A DNA stretch of 64,000 nucleotides from an uncultured Pelagibacteraceae bacterium (GTDB taxonomy: Bacteria; Pseudomonadota; Alphaproteobacteria; Pelagibacterales; Pelagibacteraceae), in assembly GCA_902524345.1 (NCBI GenBank), contig CABZCX010000003.1, positions 39,504 to 103,503 of the forward strand, read 5' to 3'. The notes under the pieces were generated by a model. It was not told the origin of the DNA and searched no databases. It saw nothing but the letters and a program-made list of their open reading frames with translations. The translations under genes and the position numbers were made by a program. Shown here piece by piece: positions 54,790 to 61,663 of the stretch (within the stretch, counting starts at the first letter, position 1; each line of letters begins with the position of its first letter).

Positions 54790-55896
54790 ATGTCATCAGG
54801 CAAAAATGGTAAATTTTATACTGACCATTTGTATGGTCTTAGGGCAATTTGTGCTCTTACAGTAGCTTTGTATCACTTCAAAACTGTATCTACATCACCA
54901 ATTACAAACAATTTATTTATCGAGAATGGCTACAGATTTGTCGATATTTTTTTTTGTCTAAGTGGATCTATATTATATTTAAAGTACTCTGAAATAAAAA
55001 AAGAATTTAGAAGTATATATATTTTTTTAAAAAAAAGATTTTTTAGATTATTTCCGCTTCATCTATTACTCTTATTTTTATTTTTTTTGATTGAAATTGC
55101 TAAATTTTTAGTTGAAAAAAAATTTAATTTGTACGGTAATACTCACGCGTTTGAAATTCTAAATATTGAGAGTTTTTTTTTAAAGTTATTGATGCTGGAG
55201 GGTTTTTGGGGTGACGTTAATGCAACATTAGCTCTAAATCCAGTATCCTGGTCAATTTCTGTAGAATTTTTTTGCTATATTCTTTTTATCTCCATATTAG
55301 TTTTAAGTAGTAGGTCATTTAGCATTTTCATATTTATTTTTTTAGTTTTATCAAGCTTGTCTATTCTTGCTTATAATAGAAGTTTTTTTGAAATTGGAAA
55401 TTTAATGTGTTTAATGAGAACTATTTATAGTTTTTTTCTTCCAATAATAATTTTTATTTTATTAAAAAAAGTAGATTTTAAAACTAATAATTTTTTTATA
55501 TATATAGTTTTTTCTCTTCTAATATATTTAATTACTTTAAATACAATTTTATCTTATATTTTATGTCCAATACTAGTAAGTCTGTTCATAAATTTAACTC
55601 TAAATAAAAAAAAAAATAATTATTTGATATCTATATTAAGTTCTAATTTTCTTAAATTTTTAGGTAAGATTAGTTATGGTATTTATATGTTTCATGTCTT
55701 GGTTTGGTGGGTTACATCACAATTTTTGAGATTTATACTAAAATACCAAACTAAATTTATTCCCTCTAAAGAAATAACAATTTTAGATTTAAGTGTGCTG
55801 GAGAGTAATTTAGTTTTAATATTGGGAATTACTGTAACAATAATTATTTCAAGTTTAAGTTACCATTTTTTTGAAAACAGATTTTATAAAAAATGA
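54790..55896 (+). CDS. Acyltransferase family 3 (OafA-like membrane O-acyltransferase)
   Basis: LYGLRAI..L.V.LYH, VDIFFCLSG, RFFRLFPLH, WSISVEF, LGKISYGIYMFH, SYHFFE. Confidence 0.9.
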   Translation: MSSGKNGKFYTDHLYGLRAICALTVALYHFKTVSTSPITNNLFIENGYRFVDIFFCLSGSILYLKYSEIKKEFRSIYIFLKKRFFRLFPLHLLLLFLFFLIEIAKFLVEKKFNLYGNTHAFEILNIESFFLKLLMLEGFWGDVNATLALNPVSWSISVEFFCYILFISILVLSSRSFSIFIFIFLVLSSLSILAYNRSFFEIGNLMCLMRTIYSFFLPIIIFILLKKVDFKTNNFFIYIVFSLLIYLITLNTILSYILCPILVSLFINLTLNKKKNNYLISILSSNFLKFLGKISYGIYMFHVLVWWVTSQFLRFILKYQTKFIPSKEITILDLSVLESNLVLILGITVTIIISSLSYHFFENRFYKK

Positions 55897-55925
55897 CGAT
55901 TTGAAGTATTCTAATTAATATAATT

Positions 55926-56002
55926 TGGTGGGCCCGCCAGGACTCGAACCTGGGACCAATACATTATGAGTGTACTGCTCTAACCAACTGAGCTACAGGC
56001 CC
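55926..56002 (-). tRNA. tRNA-Ile2(CAU), lysidine type
   Basis: GGGCCTGTAGCTCAGTTGG..., anticodon loop CTCATAA, C4/C5 acceptor-stem bases typical of TilS substrates, encoded CCA. Confidence 0.93.
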
Positions 56003-56105
56003 TTGAAATTAATTAGGTATTACACCAATTTTAAAATTCATACAAGTTAACTTTACAAACAATAGATTGTATTTTTCTAAAATTTTAGACACAAACTTTG
56101 CATTC

Positions 56106-56126
56106 GTTGGTAAATCCGTTGGTAAA
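56106..56126 (+). repeat. Tandem GTTGGTAAA repeat pair (left end of cassette)
   Basis: Copies at 56106-56114 and 56118-56126. Confidence 0.9.
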
Positions 56127-56132
56127 AATTTT

Positions 56133-58220
56133 TTATAAATTTTTAAAGGTTTTTTCAGAAATTCCATTTATTCTTAATTTCTTATATTTTAAAATTTCTT
56201 TAGCAACCTTTAAGAAAGATGTATTTTTTAATTCTTCAGCTTTTTTGAAGTCATAACCATAAATCCAGATATCTTTTAATTTATTTAATTTTTTGAATAT
56301 ATTAAAATCAGTATAACCATTCGCTAAACGAGTTATAACACCACCTTCTTGATTATTCTTAGTAAAGTAATTGTAATATCTTAATTTTTCAAAAGTTTTG
56401 ATTTTTTCGAAATTTGGAAAATCATCTACCTGTAAAATTCTATGCATAAAATATAAATCATCATAACTTCCTGCATATCCTTTATGATTAATAAATTCGT
56501 CTGTAGGTTTGTCATCCTTTACTTCTTTAGGAATAACAATTTCAAAGTCCTTTAATTTTTTGGGATAAAGATTTTTTGGAAAACCAACACTTGGTGGAGA
56601 TCTTAAGTAACTATCAGCATTTAAAGTAAATCTTTCTAGATTCGGCAACTTATATAAGTTTTTGAAAAAAGACGTAGCTGTTTTCCAATCAATGATACAG
56701 GTATCCAAATGTAAATGTTTTAGTTTCTTTAGTTTTGATAGTGGTGTCCAATCTTTAATATACTTAATATTGGCTAACACTAATTGTTCAATATCTTTAA
56801 GTTTTTCGATTTCTTTCAAACTTTTTGTGTCTCTTAGATCTATTTTATCAATCTGAGCGTATTTAAGCTTTTTATCAACCGCATTTCTTAAATATGGACT
56901 TTCCTTATTTATTTTGTTTGCTATTAATTTTCCTTTTTCATTTTTGTTTAAATAGCAACCTTTAATACCTTCAACCACGATTTTGACATATGCATTTTCA
57001 TAACCATCTGAATCTTTAGTATCATAACAATGTAAATATACCGGGTAAGAACCCTTTTTCATTGGCAAAATGATTTTGGTTAAAGAAAAATCAATATCAT
57101 TTTTAAATTTATAACCATCGAACAGCTCTGATACTCCTGCTGATATTAAATCAGTTGATATTTCCAACTTCTTGTCACTTATTTCTCTCTTTTTTGATTT
57201 TTTTCCAAATGTTGGTAGATCTAATTCTTGGGGCTCAATATCTTTAATTATGCCAATAATGAAATCTTCGAATTGCTTTTTTCTAATTTCAAAACCTTCT
57301 TTAAAATTTTCTTTGAATAAAATTTTTGACTGTTTTTTTAGTATTTGAATAGCTTTTGGTAGTCGACTAGATATATATTTTCCGGAAAGTTTTACATTCT
57401 CTTTTATTTTTAAATTAGTCTCCCATCTTTTATAATGTTCACTTTCATCTTTATTTGCTAGATAATCCTCAAAAATATATTTAGTTGGATAACAATTTTC
57501 ATCTAATTGATTGTTAAATAATTCAGTATAAGAATAATTAATTGGCTCCTGATGAGGTTTTAACTCTTTATGTATAACCGATGAACTAAAACTAGATGAT
57601 TCAGGTTTATTTATAAGACCATATGAAAATTTAACACTAAATATTGGTGAAGAGTTTTGAAAAATTCCGTCTTTTTTAAAATGATCTAATTTAATAATTT
57701 CATTTAAATCCCCATCTTCATCTAACGTATCATTGTTAACACCTAATAAAGATCGTAATGGTCCACCAAAATCACCGACAGCTATTAAACCTGATTTAGT
57801 ATTTAGATCAAATAACTTAATTCTATTTTCTTTTAATTTACCAAAAAATTGATCATTAAAATCTTCTTTATCCCACCACCAGGATAAATAACTTTGCCTA
57901 TCTTTAGGATGTTGAACATATTCGGCAACTTGTGCATCAGCAAATATTTTTCTTATTCTATTTTTAGCATCTACACCAATGTAAACAGAATAGCCGCCAT
58001 CTGCTGAAGTTCCAAAAGATATAGAGTTATATTTTGATGCATCTTTTTTTTTGAACTCATCAACCAGCTCTTTTACAGGACCACCTGTTCCCCATCCAGT
58101 TTCAAAATCATTTGTTAATCGCTCACATAAATCTCCAACTGTAACCGTTGCAGCATCAACAGCATTCATTTCCAACAAATAAACATCTGTTATTGGAAAT
58201 GGATCTCTGAGTTTTTTCAT
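56133..58220 (-). CDS. 695-aa hypothetical protein: DUF4241-like motifs at the N-terminus, LRR-like C-terminus
   Basis: AVDAATVTVGD, FGTSADGGYSVYIGVD, LFDLNTKSGLIAVGD, KKGSYPVYL; LxxLxLxx repeats (LKDIEQLVLAN, LKKLKHLHLDT, LPNLERFTLN). ORF is solid, domain calls are by eye. Confidence 0.6.
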   Translation of the reverse strand: MKKLRDPFPITDVYLLEMNAVDAATVTVGDLCERLTNDFETGWGTGGPVKELVDEFKKKDASKYNSISFGTSADGGYSVYIGVDAKNRIRKIFADAQVAEYVQHPKDRQSYLSWWWDKEDFNDQFFGKLKENRIKLFDLNTKSGLIAVGDFGGPLRSLLGVNNDTLDEDGDLNEIIKLDHFKKDGIFQNSSPIFSVKFSYGLINKPESSSFSSSVIHKELKPHQEPINYSYTELFNNQLDENCYPTKYIFEDYLANKDESEHYKRWETNLKIKENVKLSGKYISSRLPKAIQILKKQSKILFKENFKEGFEIRKKQFEDFIIGIIKDIEPQELDLPTFGKKSKKREISDKKLEISTDLISAGVSELFDGYKFKNDIDFSLTKIILPMKKGSYPVYLHCYDTKDSDGYENAYVKIVVEGIKGCYLNKNEKGKLIANKINKESPYLRNAVDKKLKYAQIDKIDLRDTKSLKEIEKLKDIEQLVLANIKYIKDWTPLSKLKKLKHLHLDTCIIDWKTATSFFKNLYKLPNLERFTLNADSYLRSPPSVGFPKNLYPKKLKDFEIVIPKEVKDDKPTDEFINHKGYAGSYDDLYFMHRILQVDDFPNFEKIKTFEKLRYYNYFTKNNQEGGVITRLANGYTDFNIFKKLNKLKDIWIYGYDFKKAEELKNTSFLKVAKEILKYKKLRINGISEKTFKNL

Positions 58221-58267
58221 ATTTTATATTAAAATAAAATTTAATCTTTGTCTGAAGGATATCATTT

Positions 58268-58288
58268 GTTGGTAAATAGTTGGTAAAT
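58268..58288 (+). repeat. Tandem GTTGGTAAAT repeat pair (right end of cassette)
   Basis: Copies at 58268-58277 and 58279-58288. Confidence 0.9.
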
Positions 58289-58361
58289 TTTTATTGAAAA
58301 AAAAGGCCTCTAATGGAGGTTAGTTTTAAACACTTATTTAAGATTTTTTTTTGAGTCGTAA

Positions 58362-58401
58362 ATTATGAGTGTACTGCTCTAACCAACTGAGCTACAGGCC
58401 C
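58362..58401 (-). pseudogene. 5' half of tRNA-Ile(CAU) (nt 1-40), att-site remnant
   Basis: Exact copy of the tRNA 5' end through the anticodon loop; diverges immediately after CTCATAAT. Confidence 0.92.
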
Positions 58402-58552: not shown

Positions 58553-59257
58553 TTAGCAAATTTTTTTAAATCTTTTTACATTCATCGTTGAGTTTAGTGG
58601 GAGACTGTTTTTTTTAATCTTTAAAACCTTTTTTTTAATTTTTTTATTATCTTTTTTAGCAAAATTATAAACGGACTGCACTGGGCCTCCTATATTAATG
58701 ATACCTTTCTTGTTTAGTAATTTGAAGAAAACTTTTACAAGATCCTCATGAAACATAAAATTTGTTTTTAAGTTTGTATATGCATAATTGTATGCAAAAG
58801 GTTTCTCAATCATACAAATTCTTAATATAAGAGAATTTTTCAACATTTGAACTGCACATTCACCTCCTAGTTTAGACCAGGCATAATTATTAATTGGGAG
58901 CAATGGGTGATATTCTTTGTAATTCCCTTTTTTAGAGGGGTAAACGTAATTTGTTGAAAAATAGATGAGCTTAATCTTATATTTTTGACAAAGGGTTACT
59001 ATATTTGCTGTACCAATAATATTTGTATTAATGCTTACATCAATTTTTTTTTCATGAAAAACCATTGGTCTTGAAATTGCTGCAGTGTGAATAATAATTT
59101 TTGGTTTTATTTTTTTAATATATTTCTCCATTTTGTTAAAATTCGTAACATCGAACACTTTAGATGATGGATAGCTAATATTTTTTTTATTTAAATAAAA
59201 TTTTTTAAACACTTTACCAAACCTTCCACTACCACCAGTAAAGATTATTTTTTTCAT
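58553..59257 (-). CDS. rmlD: RmlD-like dTDP-sugar reductase (short, 234 aa)
   Basis: TGGSGRFG, IHTAA, FSTNYVY, YAWSK (YxxxK); last gene of the rml cluster. Confidence 0.75.
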   Translation of the reverse strand: MKKIIFTGGSGRFGKVFKKFYLNKKNISYPSSKVFDVTNFNKMEKYIKKIKPKIIIHTAAISRPMVFHEKKIDVSINTNIIGTANIVTLCQKYKIKLIYFSTNYVYPSKKGNYKEYHPLLPINNYAWSKLGGECAVQMLKNSLILRICMIEKPFAYNYAYTNLKTNFMFHEDLVKVFFKLLNKKGIINIGGPVQSVYNFAKKDNKKIKKKVLKIKKNSLPLNSTMNVKRFKKIC

Positions 59258-59784
59258 CTTTTATTTTTTTTGAAATCTTTAAAAGAGATAGCAGATTTAT
59301 CTCTTTTGGAGATGATTGGTTTTTTTAAACCCCAATTAATTTTTAAATCAACATCATTCCATTTTATAGATACCTCACTTTTTGGATCTCTATAATCCGA
59401 ACAAGTGTAGTGAACAATATTTTCTCTATCTAATGCAAGAAATCCATGGGCAAAGCCTTTAGGAATAAAAAAAGATTTAGAGTTTTTCTCACTTATTATT
59501 GTTTTGTAATGTTTTCCGTAAGTTTTAGAATTTTTTCTTAAATCAACAGCTACGTCTAAAATTTTACCTTTTAAACATGTAATTATTTTATCTTGAGATC
59601 TTTTTGTTTGTAAATGTAAACCTCTCAAGACATTTTTTTTTGATTTTGAAGTTATTGAAAGAGTCATATTTTTATTTAAATTACTTTTTTTAAAAGTTTC
59701 TTTTAACCATCCTCTTTGATCAGTAAATTTTCTACCTTGTAAAATAAAAAGGTCTTTTATATTAGTTTTTTTTTTTTTCATCAC
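59254..59784 (-). CDS. rmlC: dTDP-4-dehydrorhamnose 3,5-epimerase
   Basis: DQRGWLKE, LRGLHLQ, DVAVDLR, GFAHGF, SKRD. Confidence 0.96.
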   Translation of the reverse strand: MMKKKKTNIKDLFILQGRKFTDQRGWLKETFKKSNLNKNMTLSITSKSKKNVLRGLHLQTKRSQDKIITCLKGKILDVAVDLRKNSKTYGKHYKTIISEKNSKSFFIPKGFAHGFLALDRENIVHYTCSDYRDPKSEVSIKWNDVDLKINWGLKKPIISKRDKSAISFKDFKKNKR

Positions 59785-60651
59785 TCAAATTAACTTTTTT
59801 AAGTAATTCGCGTAGTTACAATTTCCATAAAATTGAATTGCATTTAAAATCTCTTTTTTTCCAATCCATTTATTGTTAAAAGCAATTTCTTCTGGACAAC
59901 CAATTTTAAAACCTTGTCTATTTTCTATTGCTGATACGAAAGCGCTTGTTTTATAAAAATCTTCTATAGAACCACTATCTAACCATGCGCTTCCACGACC
60001 AAGAATTTCTGATGTCAATTTTTTTTTTCTTAAATAAATTTTTAATAAATCTACGATCTCCAACTCTTTTCTTGATGAAGGTTTTAGTTGTTTTGAATAT
60101 TTAACGACTTTTTTATCAAAAAAATAAAGTCCTGTTACTGCTAAATTAGAAATATATTTTTTAGGTTTTTCAATAATATTCAAAATTTTATTATTTTTAT
60201 TTACTTTGGCGACACCAAATAATTCTGGATTTAAAACTCTATGTAAAATAATTCTAGCTCCAGATTTTAATTTTTTATATTTATTTAAATTTTCAGATAA
60301 ACCTTGACCATAAAAAAAATTATCTCCTAAAATCATTGCAACACTTTTATTATCAATAAATTTTTCTCCTAAAATAAATGCATCTGGTAAGCCTCTTGGT
60401 TTGCTTTGCTCTTGATAACTGACTTTAATTCCAAGATTTTTTCCATTTTGTATTAATTTTCTATATTGATTAATTTGACCCTTGTTAACAATAATCAGGA
60501 TATCTCTAATCTTTGATAACATTAAAATTGAAAGAGGATAAAAAATAAGCGGTTTATCGTAAATGGGTAACAGCTGTTTATTTACAGCTTTTGTAAGCGG
60601 ACTCATTCTTGTTCCAGTTCCGCCCGCAAGTATAATTCCTTTATTAATCAT
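59785..60651 (-). CDS. rmlA: Glucose-1-phosphate thymidylyltransferase
   Basis: GIILAGGTGTRM, KQLLPIYDKP, LGDN, EKP, WLDSG. Confidence 0.97.
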   Translation of the reverse strand: MINKGIILAGGTGTRMSPLTKAVNKQLLPIYDKPLIFYPLSILMLSKIRDILIIVNKGQINQYRKLIQNGKNLGIKVSYQEQSKPRGLPDAFILGEKFIDNKSVAMILGDNFFYGQGLSENLNKYKKLKSGARIILHRVLNPELFGVAKVNKNNKILNIIEKPKKYISNLAVTGLYFFDKKVVKYSKQLKPSSRKELEIVDLLKIYLRKKKLTSEILGRGSAWLDSGSIEDFYKTSAFVSAIENRQGFKIGCPEEIAFNNKWIGKKEILNAIQFYGNCNYANYLKKLI

Positions 60652-61663
60652 TTTTACCCAATCTCCGAAGAATATCTTTTTTTGTTAAGAATTTATAGTA
60701 TGATTTATTTTTATTATACCAGTTGAAAGTATTCTTTAACCCAATTGTAAAATTTGTTTTTGGACGGAACTTTAACTCCCGTTTTATCTTTTTGCTATCT
60801 AAAGCATAGCGAAAATCATGACCCGGTCTATCTTTAACAAAATTTATTTTTACTTTATTGCCAATCTTTATCAATTTTTTTGAAATATTTAAAAGACTTT
60901 TACATACCTCAAGATTTGAAAGATTTTTATTTGAACCTATATTATAAAATTCTCCAATCTTCCCATTTTTGAAAATTTTTAATAAAGCTTCGCAATGATC
61001 TTTGACATAAATCCACTCTCTCGAATTAATACCTTTACCGTAGATTGGTAAATTTCTATTATTCAAAATATTATAAATCAACTTCGGTATTAATTTTTCA
61101 GGGTGTTGTTTTGGTCCATAATTATTTGAACAATTGGTAACAATTGCGGGAATCTTGTATGTTCTAATGTAAGAAAAAACTAAGTGGTCTGAAGCAGCTT
61201 TACTAGCGGCATATGGAGAACTTGGTCTATATGAGTTTTTTTCTGATGCTCTTCCTTTTAAAATATCACCAAAAACTTCATCAGTCGATATGTGAATTAA
61301 TCTTGATTTGTATTTTTTTGAAAATGATTTGAAATATTCTAAAAGATTATAGACACTTATTATATTGCTATTAATAAAATTTTTTGGATTATCTATGGAT
61401 CTATCCACATGAGTTTCGGCAGCTAAATTAAAAATACATACTGGTTTGTATCTAAAAAGAATATTTCTCATTTTAGTATTCCCAATATCACATCTTATAA
61501 ACTTATAGTTTTTTGAAGCTTTAAAATTTTTTACATTATAGAAATTTGAAGAGTAAGTTACTTTGTCTATATTCAATACTTTATATTTTTTTTCCAATAA
61601 TAACTCTATCAGATTGCTGCCAATAAAGCCTAATCCACCAGTAACAATTATATTTTTTGACAT
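60644..61663 (-). CDS. rmlB: dTDP-glucose 4,6-dehydratase
   Basis: TGGLGFIG, AAETHVDRS, ISTDEV, YAASK, DRPGHD. Confidence 0.97.
   Translation of the reverse strand: MSKNIIVTGGLGFIGSNLIELLLEKKYKVLNIDKVTYSSNFYNVKNFKASKNYKFIRCDIGNTKMRNILFRYKPVCIFNLAAETHVDRSIDNPKNFINSNIISVYNLLEYFKSFSKKYKSRLIHISTDEVFGDILKGRASEKNSYRPSSPYAASKAASDHLVFSYIRTYKIPAIVTNCSNNYGPKQHPEKLIPKLIYNILNNRNLPIYGKGINSREWIYVKDHCEALLKIFKNGKIGEFYNIGSNKNLSNLEVCKSLLNISKKLIKIGNKVKINFVKDRPGHDFRYALDSKKIKRELKFRPKTNFTIGLKNTFNWYNKNKSYYKFLTKKDILRRLGKND

What the first reader, a model, noticed from the sequence alone, without database searches (positions are those of the whole stretch)
56106..58288. Paired tandem GTTGGTAAA repeats bracket the cargo gene like integrase arm sites
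Seen: CGTTGGTAAATCCGTTGGTAAAAATTTT (period 12, ~105 bp inside the left att, ending 6 bp from the cargo stop) and TGTTGGTAAATAGTTGGTAAATTTT (period 11, ~75 bp inside the right att, ~48 bp above the cargo start). All four are in the same orientation and I noticed no other copies in the window. Known: lambda-type integrases bind tandem 9-12 bp arm sites flanking the core on the element side. Inference: these are the retained cis-sites that keep the cassette mobilisable; alternatively they are cassette-specific recombination or regulator sites.
Basis: partly seen in the sequence, partly recalled or inferred. Interest (0 to 1): 0.75.

Follow-up and report, generated by a model that had tools for sequence, protein, structure and literature searches.

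The report
Integrase arm sites flank SAR11 cassette
The paired GTTGGTAAA repeats are very probably the arm-type binding sites of a tyrosine integrase carried by small (~9 kb) phage-satellite-like elements that insert into the tRNA-Met gene of Pelagibacter; here they survive at both ends of a 2.4 kb gene cassette that has no integrase, which suggests how this streamlined ocean bacterium gains, and perhaps re-mobilises, accessory genes.

Summary
Two tandem GTTGGTAAA pairs (period 12 at 56106-56126, period 11 at 58268-58287, same strand) lie just inside a 2.4 kb island. The island is bounded by tRNA-Met(CAT) and a 43-nt copy of its 5' half. These are the only tandem pairs in the 1.08 Mb genome.

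- The same layout recurs in about 45 Pelagibacteraceae loci with different cargo.
- It is absent from the empty site (tRNA-Val, 58 nt, tRNA-Met; 20 of 29 loci chosen without regard to the motif).
- It forms the attP of integrase-bearing ~8-9 kb elements: 2-3 sites, ~80 nt, tRNA-Met 5'-half core, ~95 nt, 2 sites, ~90-200 nt, int.
- In 21 of 21 metagenome contigs with this attP form, a family integrase follows the proximal pair where the contig reaches.
- One SAG carries such an element in tandem with an integrase-less cargo island that has its own arms.
- More distant family integrases keep the architecture but use another motif (ATTGGTAAAG, CTTGGTAAGT, AATGGCAA). Where both arms are visible, the motif is the same on both.
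- The integrase model aligns over full-length lambda Int, and some members hit Arm-DNA-bind_3.

No cognate integrase is found in this genome. Binding and present-day mobility are untested. This is a new member of a known kind.

The parts
55926..56002 (-). Intact tRNA-Met(CAT) gene. Its 5' half (55960-56002) is the core copy on the attL side.
   Evidence: ARAGORN; 43-nt direct repeat D1. Isoacceptor identity (Met versus Ile2) was not determined.
56003..56105 (-). Int-proximal ('L') arm spacer supplied by the element. It holds a sigma-70-like TTGTAT-N17-TAATAC (56045-56017 on the - strand) that could drive the rebuilt tRNA.
   Evidence: Read from the sequence. Comparable -35/-10-like hexamers are seen in relatives' L arms. 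This is an inference; the strict promoter scan did not list it.
56106..56126 (+). L-arm tandem pair: two GTTGGTAAA sites, period 12. Proposed arm-type integrase sites.
   Evidence: The same pair sits 93-105 nt from the tRNA-Met 5' end in relatives and 94-95 nt from the core in integrase-bearing attPs.
56133..58220 (-). Cargo ORF, 695 aa (P0001), with only weak LRR hits. It is not a recombinase.
   Evidence: The block 55922-58227 is 97.7% identical to one in SAG AG-909-I04, while the flanking genes are 79.5% identical.
58268..58287 (+). Distal ('R') arm tandem pair: two GTTGGTAAA sites, period 11. Proposed arm-type integrase sites.
   Evidence: All 38 unique R flanks of core fragments in fetched loci carry at least 2 sites at this offset, though those loci were chosen by the motif. 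Integrase-bearing attPs carry 2-3 sites here.
58288..58358 (-). R-arm spacer with a short hairpin (58307-58319) followed on the - strand by a T-run. Weakly terminator-like and conserved in many island-type R arms.
   Evidence: Sequence and alignment of R ends. Not called by the strict terminator scan.
58359..58401 (-). Orphan copy of tRNA-Met positions 1-43, the core on the attR side. It has one mismatch, and its inner flank is AAATT, as in element attPs.

Best explanation
The four GTTGGTAAA repeats are arm-type binding sites for the N-terminal domain of a lambda/P4-like tyrosine integrase. That integrase is encoded by small (~8-9 kb) integrative elements of Pelagibacter: int, DNA polymerase A, a small-terminase-like gene and no recognised capsid genes, so they are phage-satellite/VEIME-like.

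These elements recombine their attP with the 5' half of the host tRNA-Met gene, probably at the anticodon loop. The attP is 2-3 tandem sites, ~80 nt, a 40-43 nt tRNA-Met 5'-half core, ~95 nt, 2 tandem sites, then int. Integration rebuilds the tRNA with an element-supplied 5' half and upstream region, and leaves the displaced 5' half at the far end.

The window island is the product of such an integration. Both arms and both core copies are intact, but the integrase and replication genes are gone and a single 695-aa cargo gene sits between the arms. It is therefore an att-flanked, integrase-less cassette, comparable to a cis-mobilisable element.

Shown here: the anatomy, its recurrence, its link to the integrase, the motif covariation and the integrase domain architecture.

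Inferred: that the integrase N-domain is the protein that binds the repeats, and that an incoming element's integrase could still excise or capture this cassette.
For: (1) The tandem pairs occur only at the island borders in this genome.

(2) About 45 Pelagibacteraceae loci show the pairs at fixed offsets from the tRNA-Met or its 5'-half fragment. Cargo differs and island length runs from 2.4 to about 27 kb. Motif columns are at least 90% conserved, against 30-70% for flanking columns.

(3) Empty sites have no motif: tRNA-Val, 58 nt, tRNA-Met in 20 of 29 loci chosen only by the core.

(4) Viral contig L064 carries R sites, core, L sites and then a 470-aa integrase (phrog_216, E 1e-12) plus DNA polymerase A. 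Integrase homologues at 61-81% identity have the same attP.

(5) In 21 of 21 metagenome contigs with the contiguous attP form, a family integrase starts about 140-200 nt after the L pair wherever the contig is long enough. One contig has a 47-nt terminal overlap, consistent with a circle.

(6) In SAG AG-899-N21 the order is tRNA-Met, L pair, int ... polA ..., triple R sites, core fragment, L pair, 7-gene cargo without int, R pair, core fragment, tRNA-Val.

(7) Covariation: integrases at 40-52% identity keep the architecture but use ATTGGTAAAG, CTTGGTAAGT or AATGGCAA. Both arms are visible for the first two (3 distal plus 2 proximal sites), and there the motif is identical on both arms of one element.

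(8) The integrase AF2 model (pLDDT 85.8) has an N-terminal beta-sheet-plus-helix domain. Its best PDB matches are full-length lambda Int, with 424-432 aligned columns. PF13356 Arm-DNA-bind_3 hits 5 of 50 members and PF22022 hits 16 of 50.

(9) Published pelagiphages and satellites integrate at the 5' ends of SAR11 tRNAs, and prophage PNP1 uses tRNA-Met (PMC8477408; 10.1101/410191; PMC9618062).
Against: - There is no binding data.
- This genome (90% complete) has no homologue of the integrase and only one Xer-like recombinase elsewhere. Any activity here would need an incoming element.
- Island-type R arms have two sites and a different spacer from element-type R arms, which usually have three.
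- None of the 21 attP-form contigs was a cargo-only circle.
- Near-identity with AG-909-I04 stops at 58227, before the R arm. Cassette exchange may therefore run by homologous recombination anchored on the tRNA and L arm rather than by site-specific excision.
- Most island loci were fetched by searching for the motif, so the conservation figures for islands are biased by ascertainment. The integrase-selected and core-selected sets are not.
Confidence: 0.82

Rival explanations
1. The repeats began as arm sites but are now inert relics. The island is a fixed scar of an old integration. Its cargo turns over by homologous recombination that uses the conserved tRNA and arms as anchors, and the sites do nothing in this genome.
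For: No cognate integrase in the genome. No cargo-only attP circle among 21 attP-form contigs. Homology with AG-909-I04 ends inside the island, before the R arm. An orphan triple site without a core lies inside the G373 island.
Against: All four sites are perfect 9/9 matches, although neighbouring arm sequence has diverged to about 79-87% between genomes. Tandem arrays show repeated integrations next to resident islands. This rival concerns present activity, not the identity of the sites.
Confidence: 0.35
2. The repeats are operators or activator sites of a transcription factor (for example a response regulator that binds direct repeats with an 11-bp period) controlling the cargo gene and the tRNA.
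For: On the - strand the R pair lies 47 nt upstream of the cargo ATG and the L pair about 100 nt upstream of the tRNA. In 5 of 8 relatives the gene next to the R pair reads away from it.
Against: The offset is fixed relative to the tRNA core, not to genes. In G373 and G336 the adjacent gene ends at the pair. Native tRNA-Met upstream regions lack the motif. No promoter-like match overlaps the pairs. The same sites flank the core in element attPs next to int, and the motif covaries with the integrase.
Confidence: 0.05
3. The repeats bind another element-encoded protein, such as an excisionase (RDF), a replication initiator (iterons) or a packaging protein (pac), rather than the integrase.
For: Tandem direct repeats with a period of about one helical turn are also typical of Xis sites and iterons. 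The elements encode several small proteins of unknown function, a DNA polymerase and a TerS-like protein.
Against: The same motif occurs on both sides of the core at lambda-like distances. Xis sites and iterons usually form a single cluster (established knowledge of lambda attP and plasmid origins). The sites are retained in islands that have lost every element gene. The integrase has a domain of the arm-binding type.
Confidence: 0.08
4. Chance similarity in AT-rich intergenic DNA.
For: Single 9-mers occur at background frequency: 35 copies against 30 for the control.
Against: Tandem pairs gave 0 control matches in 401 genomes, against 14 real matches. Their positions are fixed relative to the core in dozens of genomes and elements.
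Confidence: 0.01

Closest known systems
Arm-type sites of phage lambda attP (P1, P2, P'1-P'3) bound by the Int N-terminal domain
   Same: A short motif repeated in tandem at about one helical turn, on both arms and roughly 70-160 nt from the crossover region. An attP of about 260 nt lies next to int. The integrase is three-domain, and its model aligns over full-length lambda Int.
   Different: The motif differs. All sites point the same way on both arms, as 3 + 2 tandem sites. The target is the 5' half of a tRNA gene. The integrase is 470-535 aa and shares about 12% sequence identity with lambda Int. No binding data exist.
P4-family integrases with the Arm-DNA-bind_3 (PF13356) N-terminal domain, which target tRNA genes
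   Same: The domain order Arm-DNA-bind_3 / Phage_int_M / Phage_integrase is detected in part of the family, and the target is a tRNA gene.
   Different: Only 5 of 50 members reach E<=1 for PF13356. The identity block covers the 5' half of the tRNA rather than the usual 3' part.
CIMEs (cis-mobilisable elements) and site-specific accretion with ICEs, as described for ICESt1/ICESt3 of Streptococcus thermophilus (from my own knowledge)
   Same: An island flanked by att sites of a related integrative element but lacking recombination genes. It is found in tandem with an integrase-bearing element at the same attB.
   Different: The partner here is a satellite-like element, not a conjugative one. Trans-mobilisation has not been demonstrated.
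VEIMEs, marine phage satellites (Eppley et al. 2022, PMC9618062), in particular the Pelagibacter-associated module 6 with small terminase and DNA polymerase genes
   Same: Elements of about 9 kb with a tyrosine integrase, DNA polymerase A and a TerS-like gene. Contigs are concatemeric or circular, and one copy is integrated in a Pelagibacter SAG.
   Different: Assignment rests on the paper's description only; I did not compare with its sequences. The window holds no such element, only its att arms.
HTVC010P-type and HTVC019P-type temperate pelagiphages and prophage PNP1 (PMC8477408; 10.1101/410191)
   Same: attP lies next to int, with a 14-46 bp core identical to the 5' end of a SAR11 tRNA. 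PNP1 is reported to use tRNA-Met.
   Different: No isolate phage in the INPHARED collection matched the integrase or the arms. Arm sites are not discussed in those papers.
Tycheposons of Prochlorococcus (10.1101/2020.12.28.424599)
   Same: tRNA-anchored islands built by repeated integrations, with partial tRNA copies, PICI-like and cargo-carrying forms, and degenerate remnants.
   Different: A different host and, presumably, a different recombinase clade (not tested). Here the cargo-only units keep both arms intact.

Membership tests
Arm-type sites of a heterobivalent (lambda/P4-type) tyrosine integrase | Several copies of one short motif in both attP arms, distinct from the crossover core | tested here: met
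   2-3 sites on the distal arm and 2 on the int-proximal arm flank the tRNA-Met core in L064, L261-L266, L268 and 21 metagenome contigs. The same sites lie at the window's island ends.
Arm-type sites of a heterobivalent (lambda/P4-type) tyrosine integrase | Physical linkage of the attP to an integrase gene on a mobile element | tested here: met
   Met in relatives: int starts 90-200 nt after the L pair. Not met in the window itself, which has no integrase.
Arm-type sites of a heterobivalent (lambda/P4-type) tyrosine integrase | The integrase has a separate N-terminal arm-binding domain | tested here: met
   The AF2 model shows an N-terminal beta-sheet plus helix (residues ~15-111). Foldseek aligns it over full-length lambda Int 1z1b/1z1g/5j0n. 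PF13356 hits 5 of 50 members, best E 2.7e-4.
Arm-type sites of a heterobivalent (lambda/P4-type) tyrosine integrase | Site sequence co-varies with integrase lineage and is shared by both arms of one element | tested here: met
   GTTGGTAA, GTTGGTAT and GTTGGCA occur with integrases at 61-100% identity; ATTGGTAAAG, CTTGGTAAGT and AATGGCAA at 40-52% identity. The motif is the same on both arms where both are visible.
Arm-type sites of a heterobivalent (lambda/P4-type) tyrosine integrase | Direct, sequence-specific binding by the integrase, and a requirement for the sites in recombination | not testable with these tools
   Needs EMSA or footprinting and recombination assays.
CIME-like integrase-less att-flanked cassette | Flanked by attL- and attR-type sites derived from a related integrative element | tested here: met
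   Core copies at 55960-56002 and 58359-58401 plus both arms.
CIME-like integrase-less att-flanked cassette | Encodes no recombinase of its own | tested here: met
   The single 695-aa ORF has only weak LRR hits. No PF00589 hit or family-integrase hit lies in the island or the window.
CIME-like integrase-less att-flanked cassette | Mobilised in trans by the related element's integrase | not testable with these tools
   Indirect evidence only: tandem accretion in AG-899-N21 and AG-895-B08, and 97.7% cassette identity against 79.5% flank identity.
VEIME/PICI-like phage satellite (the integrase-bearing relatives, not the window island) | Small integrative element with int, replication and packaging-redirection genes but no capsid, tail or large-terminase genes | tested here: inconclusive
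   An 8.9-9.7 kb unit with int, DNA polymerase A and a Terminase_2-like gene. The other ORFs have no PHROG or Pfam match. The absence of structural genes rests on these non-matches.
VEIME/PICI-like phage satellite (the integrase-bearing relatives, not the window island) | Packaged in virions as concatemers with the help of a phage | not testable with these tools
   Only concatemeric or circular contigs and one IMG/VR record.
Integron gene cassette (attC/attI with IntI) | An attC site with imperfect inverted repeats that folds as a hairpin, and an adjacent IntI integrase | tested here: not met
   The sites are direct repeats in a single orientation, bounded by tRNA-derived cores. There is no IntI or other recombinase nearby.

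The most novel reading that the evidence does not exclude
The integrase-less, arm-flanked cassettes at tRNA-Met are actively excised, captured and re-inserted in trans by the integrases of incoming satellite-like elements. On this reading, phage satellites run an integron-like cassette exchange in Pelagibacter, a genus otherwise almost devoid of mobile elements. This could account for part of its open pangenome, including the defence genes seen in some of these islands.
Probability: 0.3. Interest if true: 0.75.

Novelty: new member of a known kind. Interest (0 to 1): 0.5.

Why it matters
How SAR11, with tiny genomes and almost no classical mobile elements, acquires its very large flexible gene pool is an open question.

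This locus gives a concrete, testable module:
- a defined attB, the 5' half of tRNA-Met next to tRNA-Val;
- a defined attP architecture with a recognisable arm motif;
- an abundant integrase family carried by ~9 kb satellite-like elements;
- dozens of cargo-only cassettes that still carry both arms.

The arm motif plus the core is a simple sequence signature for finding these elements and their cargo in marine genomes and viromes. It also provides the substrates needed to test the integrase in vitro or in a laboratory E. coli strain.

Tried and rejected
- IMG/VR scan for the tandem motif. It gave 87 loci, almost all period-12 coding repeats in unrelated viruses. Only L064 was relevant, and it was recognised later through the core scan.
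- INPHARED phages. DNA searches with both island ends matched only phage tRNA-Met genes. A protein search with the integrase found nothing.
- The search for related loci with the integrase in viral contigs found only the query itself.
- PF00589 in five genomes found only one Xer-like gene per genome, elsewhere. The family integrase is weakly seen by Pfam, so I repeated the search with the protein itself.
- BLAST of the R arm over 141 genus genomes at E 0.01 was mostly noise.
- The promoter and terminator scan found nothing at the pairs, which gives the regulatory rival no support.
- I considered an integron-like reading, prompted by the triple site inside the G373 island. I rejected it because element R arms natively carry three sites, and the cassette boundaries are tRNA-derived cores.
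- The metagenome scan for contiguous attP forms returned only integrase-bearing elements and no cargo-only circles.
Full report
**Observation.** The window has 5 exact copies against 0.74 expected. Single 9-mers are at background level genome-wide, 35 against 30 for the reversed control. The tandem arrangement occurs only twice in the 1.08 Mb genome, both times here. In 401 family genomes the reversed control never matched, against 14 real matches.

**Setting.** ARAGORN finds tRNA-Met(CAT) at 55926-56002 on the - strand. Its first 43 nt (55960-56002) are repeated, with one mismatch, at 58359-58401. Read on the - strand, the order is:
- orphan tRNA 5' half;
- 71 nt;
- R pair;
- 47 nt;
- a 695-aa ORF (56133-58220) with only weak LRR hits;
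- 6 nt;
- L pair;
- 103 nt;
- intact tRNA-Met.

The neighbourhood is mlaC, an acyltransferase, tRNA-Met, the island, the tRNA fragment, four rml genes, tRNA-Val and rpoD.

**Recurrence in relatives.** In same-genus genomes the R pair always lies about 75-100 nt inside the island from a tRNA-Met 5'-half fragment. That fragment has the same AAATT inner flank. The L pair lies 93-105 nt from the 5' end of the intact tRNA-Met. Island length runs from 2.4 kb to about 27 kb, and the cargo differs between genomes. One island holds a PrsW protease and a defence-type cluster with Z1, HATPase_c_3, DUF4420 and Dcm.

These include tandem arrays of the form tRNA, L pair, cargo, R pair, fragment, L pair, cargo, R pair, fragment. 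All 38 unique fragment-side flanks carry at least 2 sites at the R offset, and 24 of 26 unique tRNA-side flanks carry at least 2 at the L offset. Motif columns are at least 90% conserved, against 30-70% for neighbouring columns. These loci were fetched by the motif, so the figures are biased by ascertainment.

**Unbiased controls.** I chose loci only by the 40-nt core in 50 genus genomes that are at least 97% complete. Of these, 48 have the core and only 3, plus the window's genome, have two copies. Of 29 tRNA-Met loci read, 20 are the empty site (tRNA-Val, 58 nt, tRNA-Met) with no motif. Nine have something else upstream: one has a decayed L arm, and two have a different arm family. The repeats are therefore not part of the native tRNA region. 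They arrive with an inserted element.

**The link to an integrase.** Only one IMG/VR contig, L064, holds the exact 35-nt core. It has no complete tRNA. Its layout is:
- three R-type sites with period 11;
- about 85 nt;
- the core;
- 94 nt;
- two L-type sites with period 12;
- 90 nt;
- a 470-aa ORF that matches the integrase PHROG phrog_216 (E 1e-12), followed by a family A DNA polymerase.

The integrase has 116 homologue clusters in marine metagenomes, many of them carrying PF00589. Contigs encoding homologues at 64-81% identity have the same attP upstream of int, with site variants GTTGGTAT, GTTGGCA or GTTGGTAA.

A metagenome scan for the contiguous form (site, core, site) returned 21 contigs. 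In every one that is long enough, a family integrase starts about 140-200 nt after the L pair. Eleven of the contigs are 7.9-9.4 kb long, and one has a 47-nt terminal overlap. Two contigs carry identical copies 9.1 and 9.7 kb apart.

The gene set is int, DNA polymerase A, a Terminase_2-like protein and several unknowns, with no recognised structural genes. This fits the published description of Pelagibacter-associated VEIME satellites with small terminase and DNA polymerase genes (PMC9618062). I did not compare sequences with that study.

**In situ proof of the arrangement.** SAG AG-899-N21 encodes a 474-aa integrase 61% identical to that of L064. Its contig reads as follows:
- mlaC;
- tRNA-Met;
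- L pair;
- int ... polA ... TerS-like gene;
- triple R sites;
- core fragment;
- a second L pair;
- seven cargo ORFs without an integrase;
- R pair;
- second core fragment;
- tRNA-Val.

An integrase-bearing element thus sits in tandem with an integrase-less island that has its own arms. This is the accretion pattern known for ICE/CIME pairs and for tycheposon islands (10.1101/2020.12.28.424599).

**Covariation.** More distant family integrases keep the architecture but change the motif.
- P0081 (41% identity): ATTGGTAAAG, three sites on the distal arm and two on the proximal arm.
- P0089 (40%): CTTGGTAAGT, three plus two.
- P0046 (52%, integrated at mlaC/tRNA-Met in another lineage): AATGGCAA twice on the visible arm.
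- P0057 (49%): GTTGGTAC twice on the visible arm.

Where both arms are visible, the two arms of one element carry the same motif, while the motif differs between elements. This is what is expected if one element-encoded protein reads both arms.

**The integrase can do it.** The AlphaFold model (50-sequence alignment, pLDDT 85.8) has an N-terminal four-stranded sheet plus helix at residues ~15-111, ahead of the core-binding and catalytic domains. The best Foldseek matches in the PDB are full-length lambda integrase chains 1z1b, 1z1g and 5j0n, with 424-432 aligned columns. Pfam finds Phage_integrase in 40 of 50 members, Phage_int_M in 16 and Arm-DNA-bind_3 in 5, with a best E-value of 2.7e-4.

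**Mechanism proposed.** The element's attP spans about 260 nt. Integrase N-domains bind the tandem arm sites, while the C-terminal domains act on the core, probably at the anticodon loop. The identity block ends one or two bases 3' of that loop. Integration rebuilds tRNA-Met from an element-supplied 5' half and upstream region. It leaves the displaced 5' half, still attached to the native tRNA-Val side, at the far end. This mirrors the 5'-end cores reported for pelagiphages (10.1101/410191; PMC8477408, which also notes that prophage PNP1 uses tRNA-Met).

The window island keeps both arms and both cores but has only a cargo gene. It is an att-flanked, integrase-less cassette.

Shown: anatomy, recurrence, linkage, covariation and domain architecture. 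Inferred: binding by the integrase, and any present-day mobilisation.

**Is the cassette still mobile?** Evidence for:
- all four sites are perfect;
- tandem arrays exist;
- the block 55922-58227 is 97.7% identical to one in SAG AG-909-I04, while the flanking core genes are 79.5% identical. The figures are 92.3 against 75.3% for SAG-MED19 and 84.9 against 67.0% for AG-337-E19. This indicates recent horizontal spread of the cassette.

Evidence against:
- this genome (90% complete) has no family integrase and only one Xer-like recombinase;
- the near-identity ends before the R arm;
- no cargo-only attP form was found among 21 contigs;
- island-type R arms have two sites and their own spacer.

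I put trans-mobilisation at roughly 0.3-0.4.

**Rivals.**
- A transcription-factor reading fails. The offset is fixed to the core rather than to genes, adjacent genes lie in either orientation, native tRNA upstream regions lack the motif, and no promoter-like match overlaps the pairs.
- Binding by an excisionase, replication initiator or packaging protein cannot be excluded without biochemistry. It fits the two-arm symmetry less well.
- Chance is excluded by the counts.

**Novelty.** Arm-type sites, integration at SAR11 tRNAs and marine satellites are all known. In the papers I could search I did not find this integrase family's arm motif and attP architecture, or the widespread cargo-only cassettes that keep both arms at tRNA-Met in Pelagibacter. 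I file it as a new member of a known kind.

Noticed in passing
window 54790-55896 (+): A 368-aa Acyl_transf_3 gene lies between mlaC and the 3' end of tRNA-Met. In the relatives examined (G373, G126, G194, G275, AG-899-N21, AG-909-I04), mlaC ends a few bases from the tRNA. This is a separate insertion on the other side of the tRNA.
   Followed up: partly
window 58553-61663 (-): Four dTDP-rhamnose pathway genes (RmlD-, RmlC-, RmlA- and RmlB-like) lie between the orphan tRNA-Met fragment and tRNA-Val. In the empty site the two tRNAs are 58 nt apart. G275 and G387 also carry other genes at this spot. This is a second variable slot with no obvious att repeats.
   Followed up: partly
window 55981-55988 and 58380-58387: The D-loop part of the core reads GTTGGTTA on the - strand, one mismatch from the arm motif GTTGGTAA and in inverted orientation. 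The chance of such a near-match in a 43-nt core is roughly 0.03, so it may be a coincidence.
   Followed up: no
L289 (G197), L279 (G173), L218: Some Pelagibacter genomes have a duplicated tRNA-Met core or an insertion at the same tRNA, but with quite different arm sequences that lack the GTTGGTAA repeats. At least one other element family appears to use the same attB.
   Followed up: no
L102:8060-8091 (G373 = AG-916-N14): An orphan triple arm site (periods 11 and 12) sits inside a ~27 kb island with no core copy nearby. It separates a PrsW/MORN gene block from a block holding a Z1, HATPase_c_3, DUF4420 and Dcm-methylase defence-type cluster. It looks like the scar of an older element whose core was deleted.
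   Followed up: partly
L261/L262 (unit 9104 nt), L303/L304 (copies 9.7 kb apart), L308 (attPs 8882 nt apart), L321 (47-nt terminal overlap): Contigs of the integrase-bearing elements are concatemeric or circular, with units of about 8.9-9.7 kb. This is consistent with satellite DNA packaged as concatemers.
   Followed up: partly
window 55922-58227 versus L208 (AG-909-I04): The block of tRNA, L arm and cargo gene is 97.7% identical between two genomes whose flanking mlaC region is 79.5% identical. In AG-909-I04 the same gene is followed by about 3.9 kb of further cargo before the R arm.
   Followed up: partly
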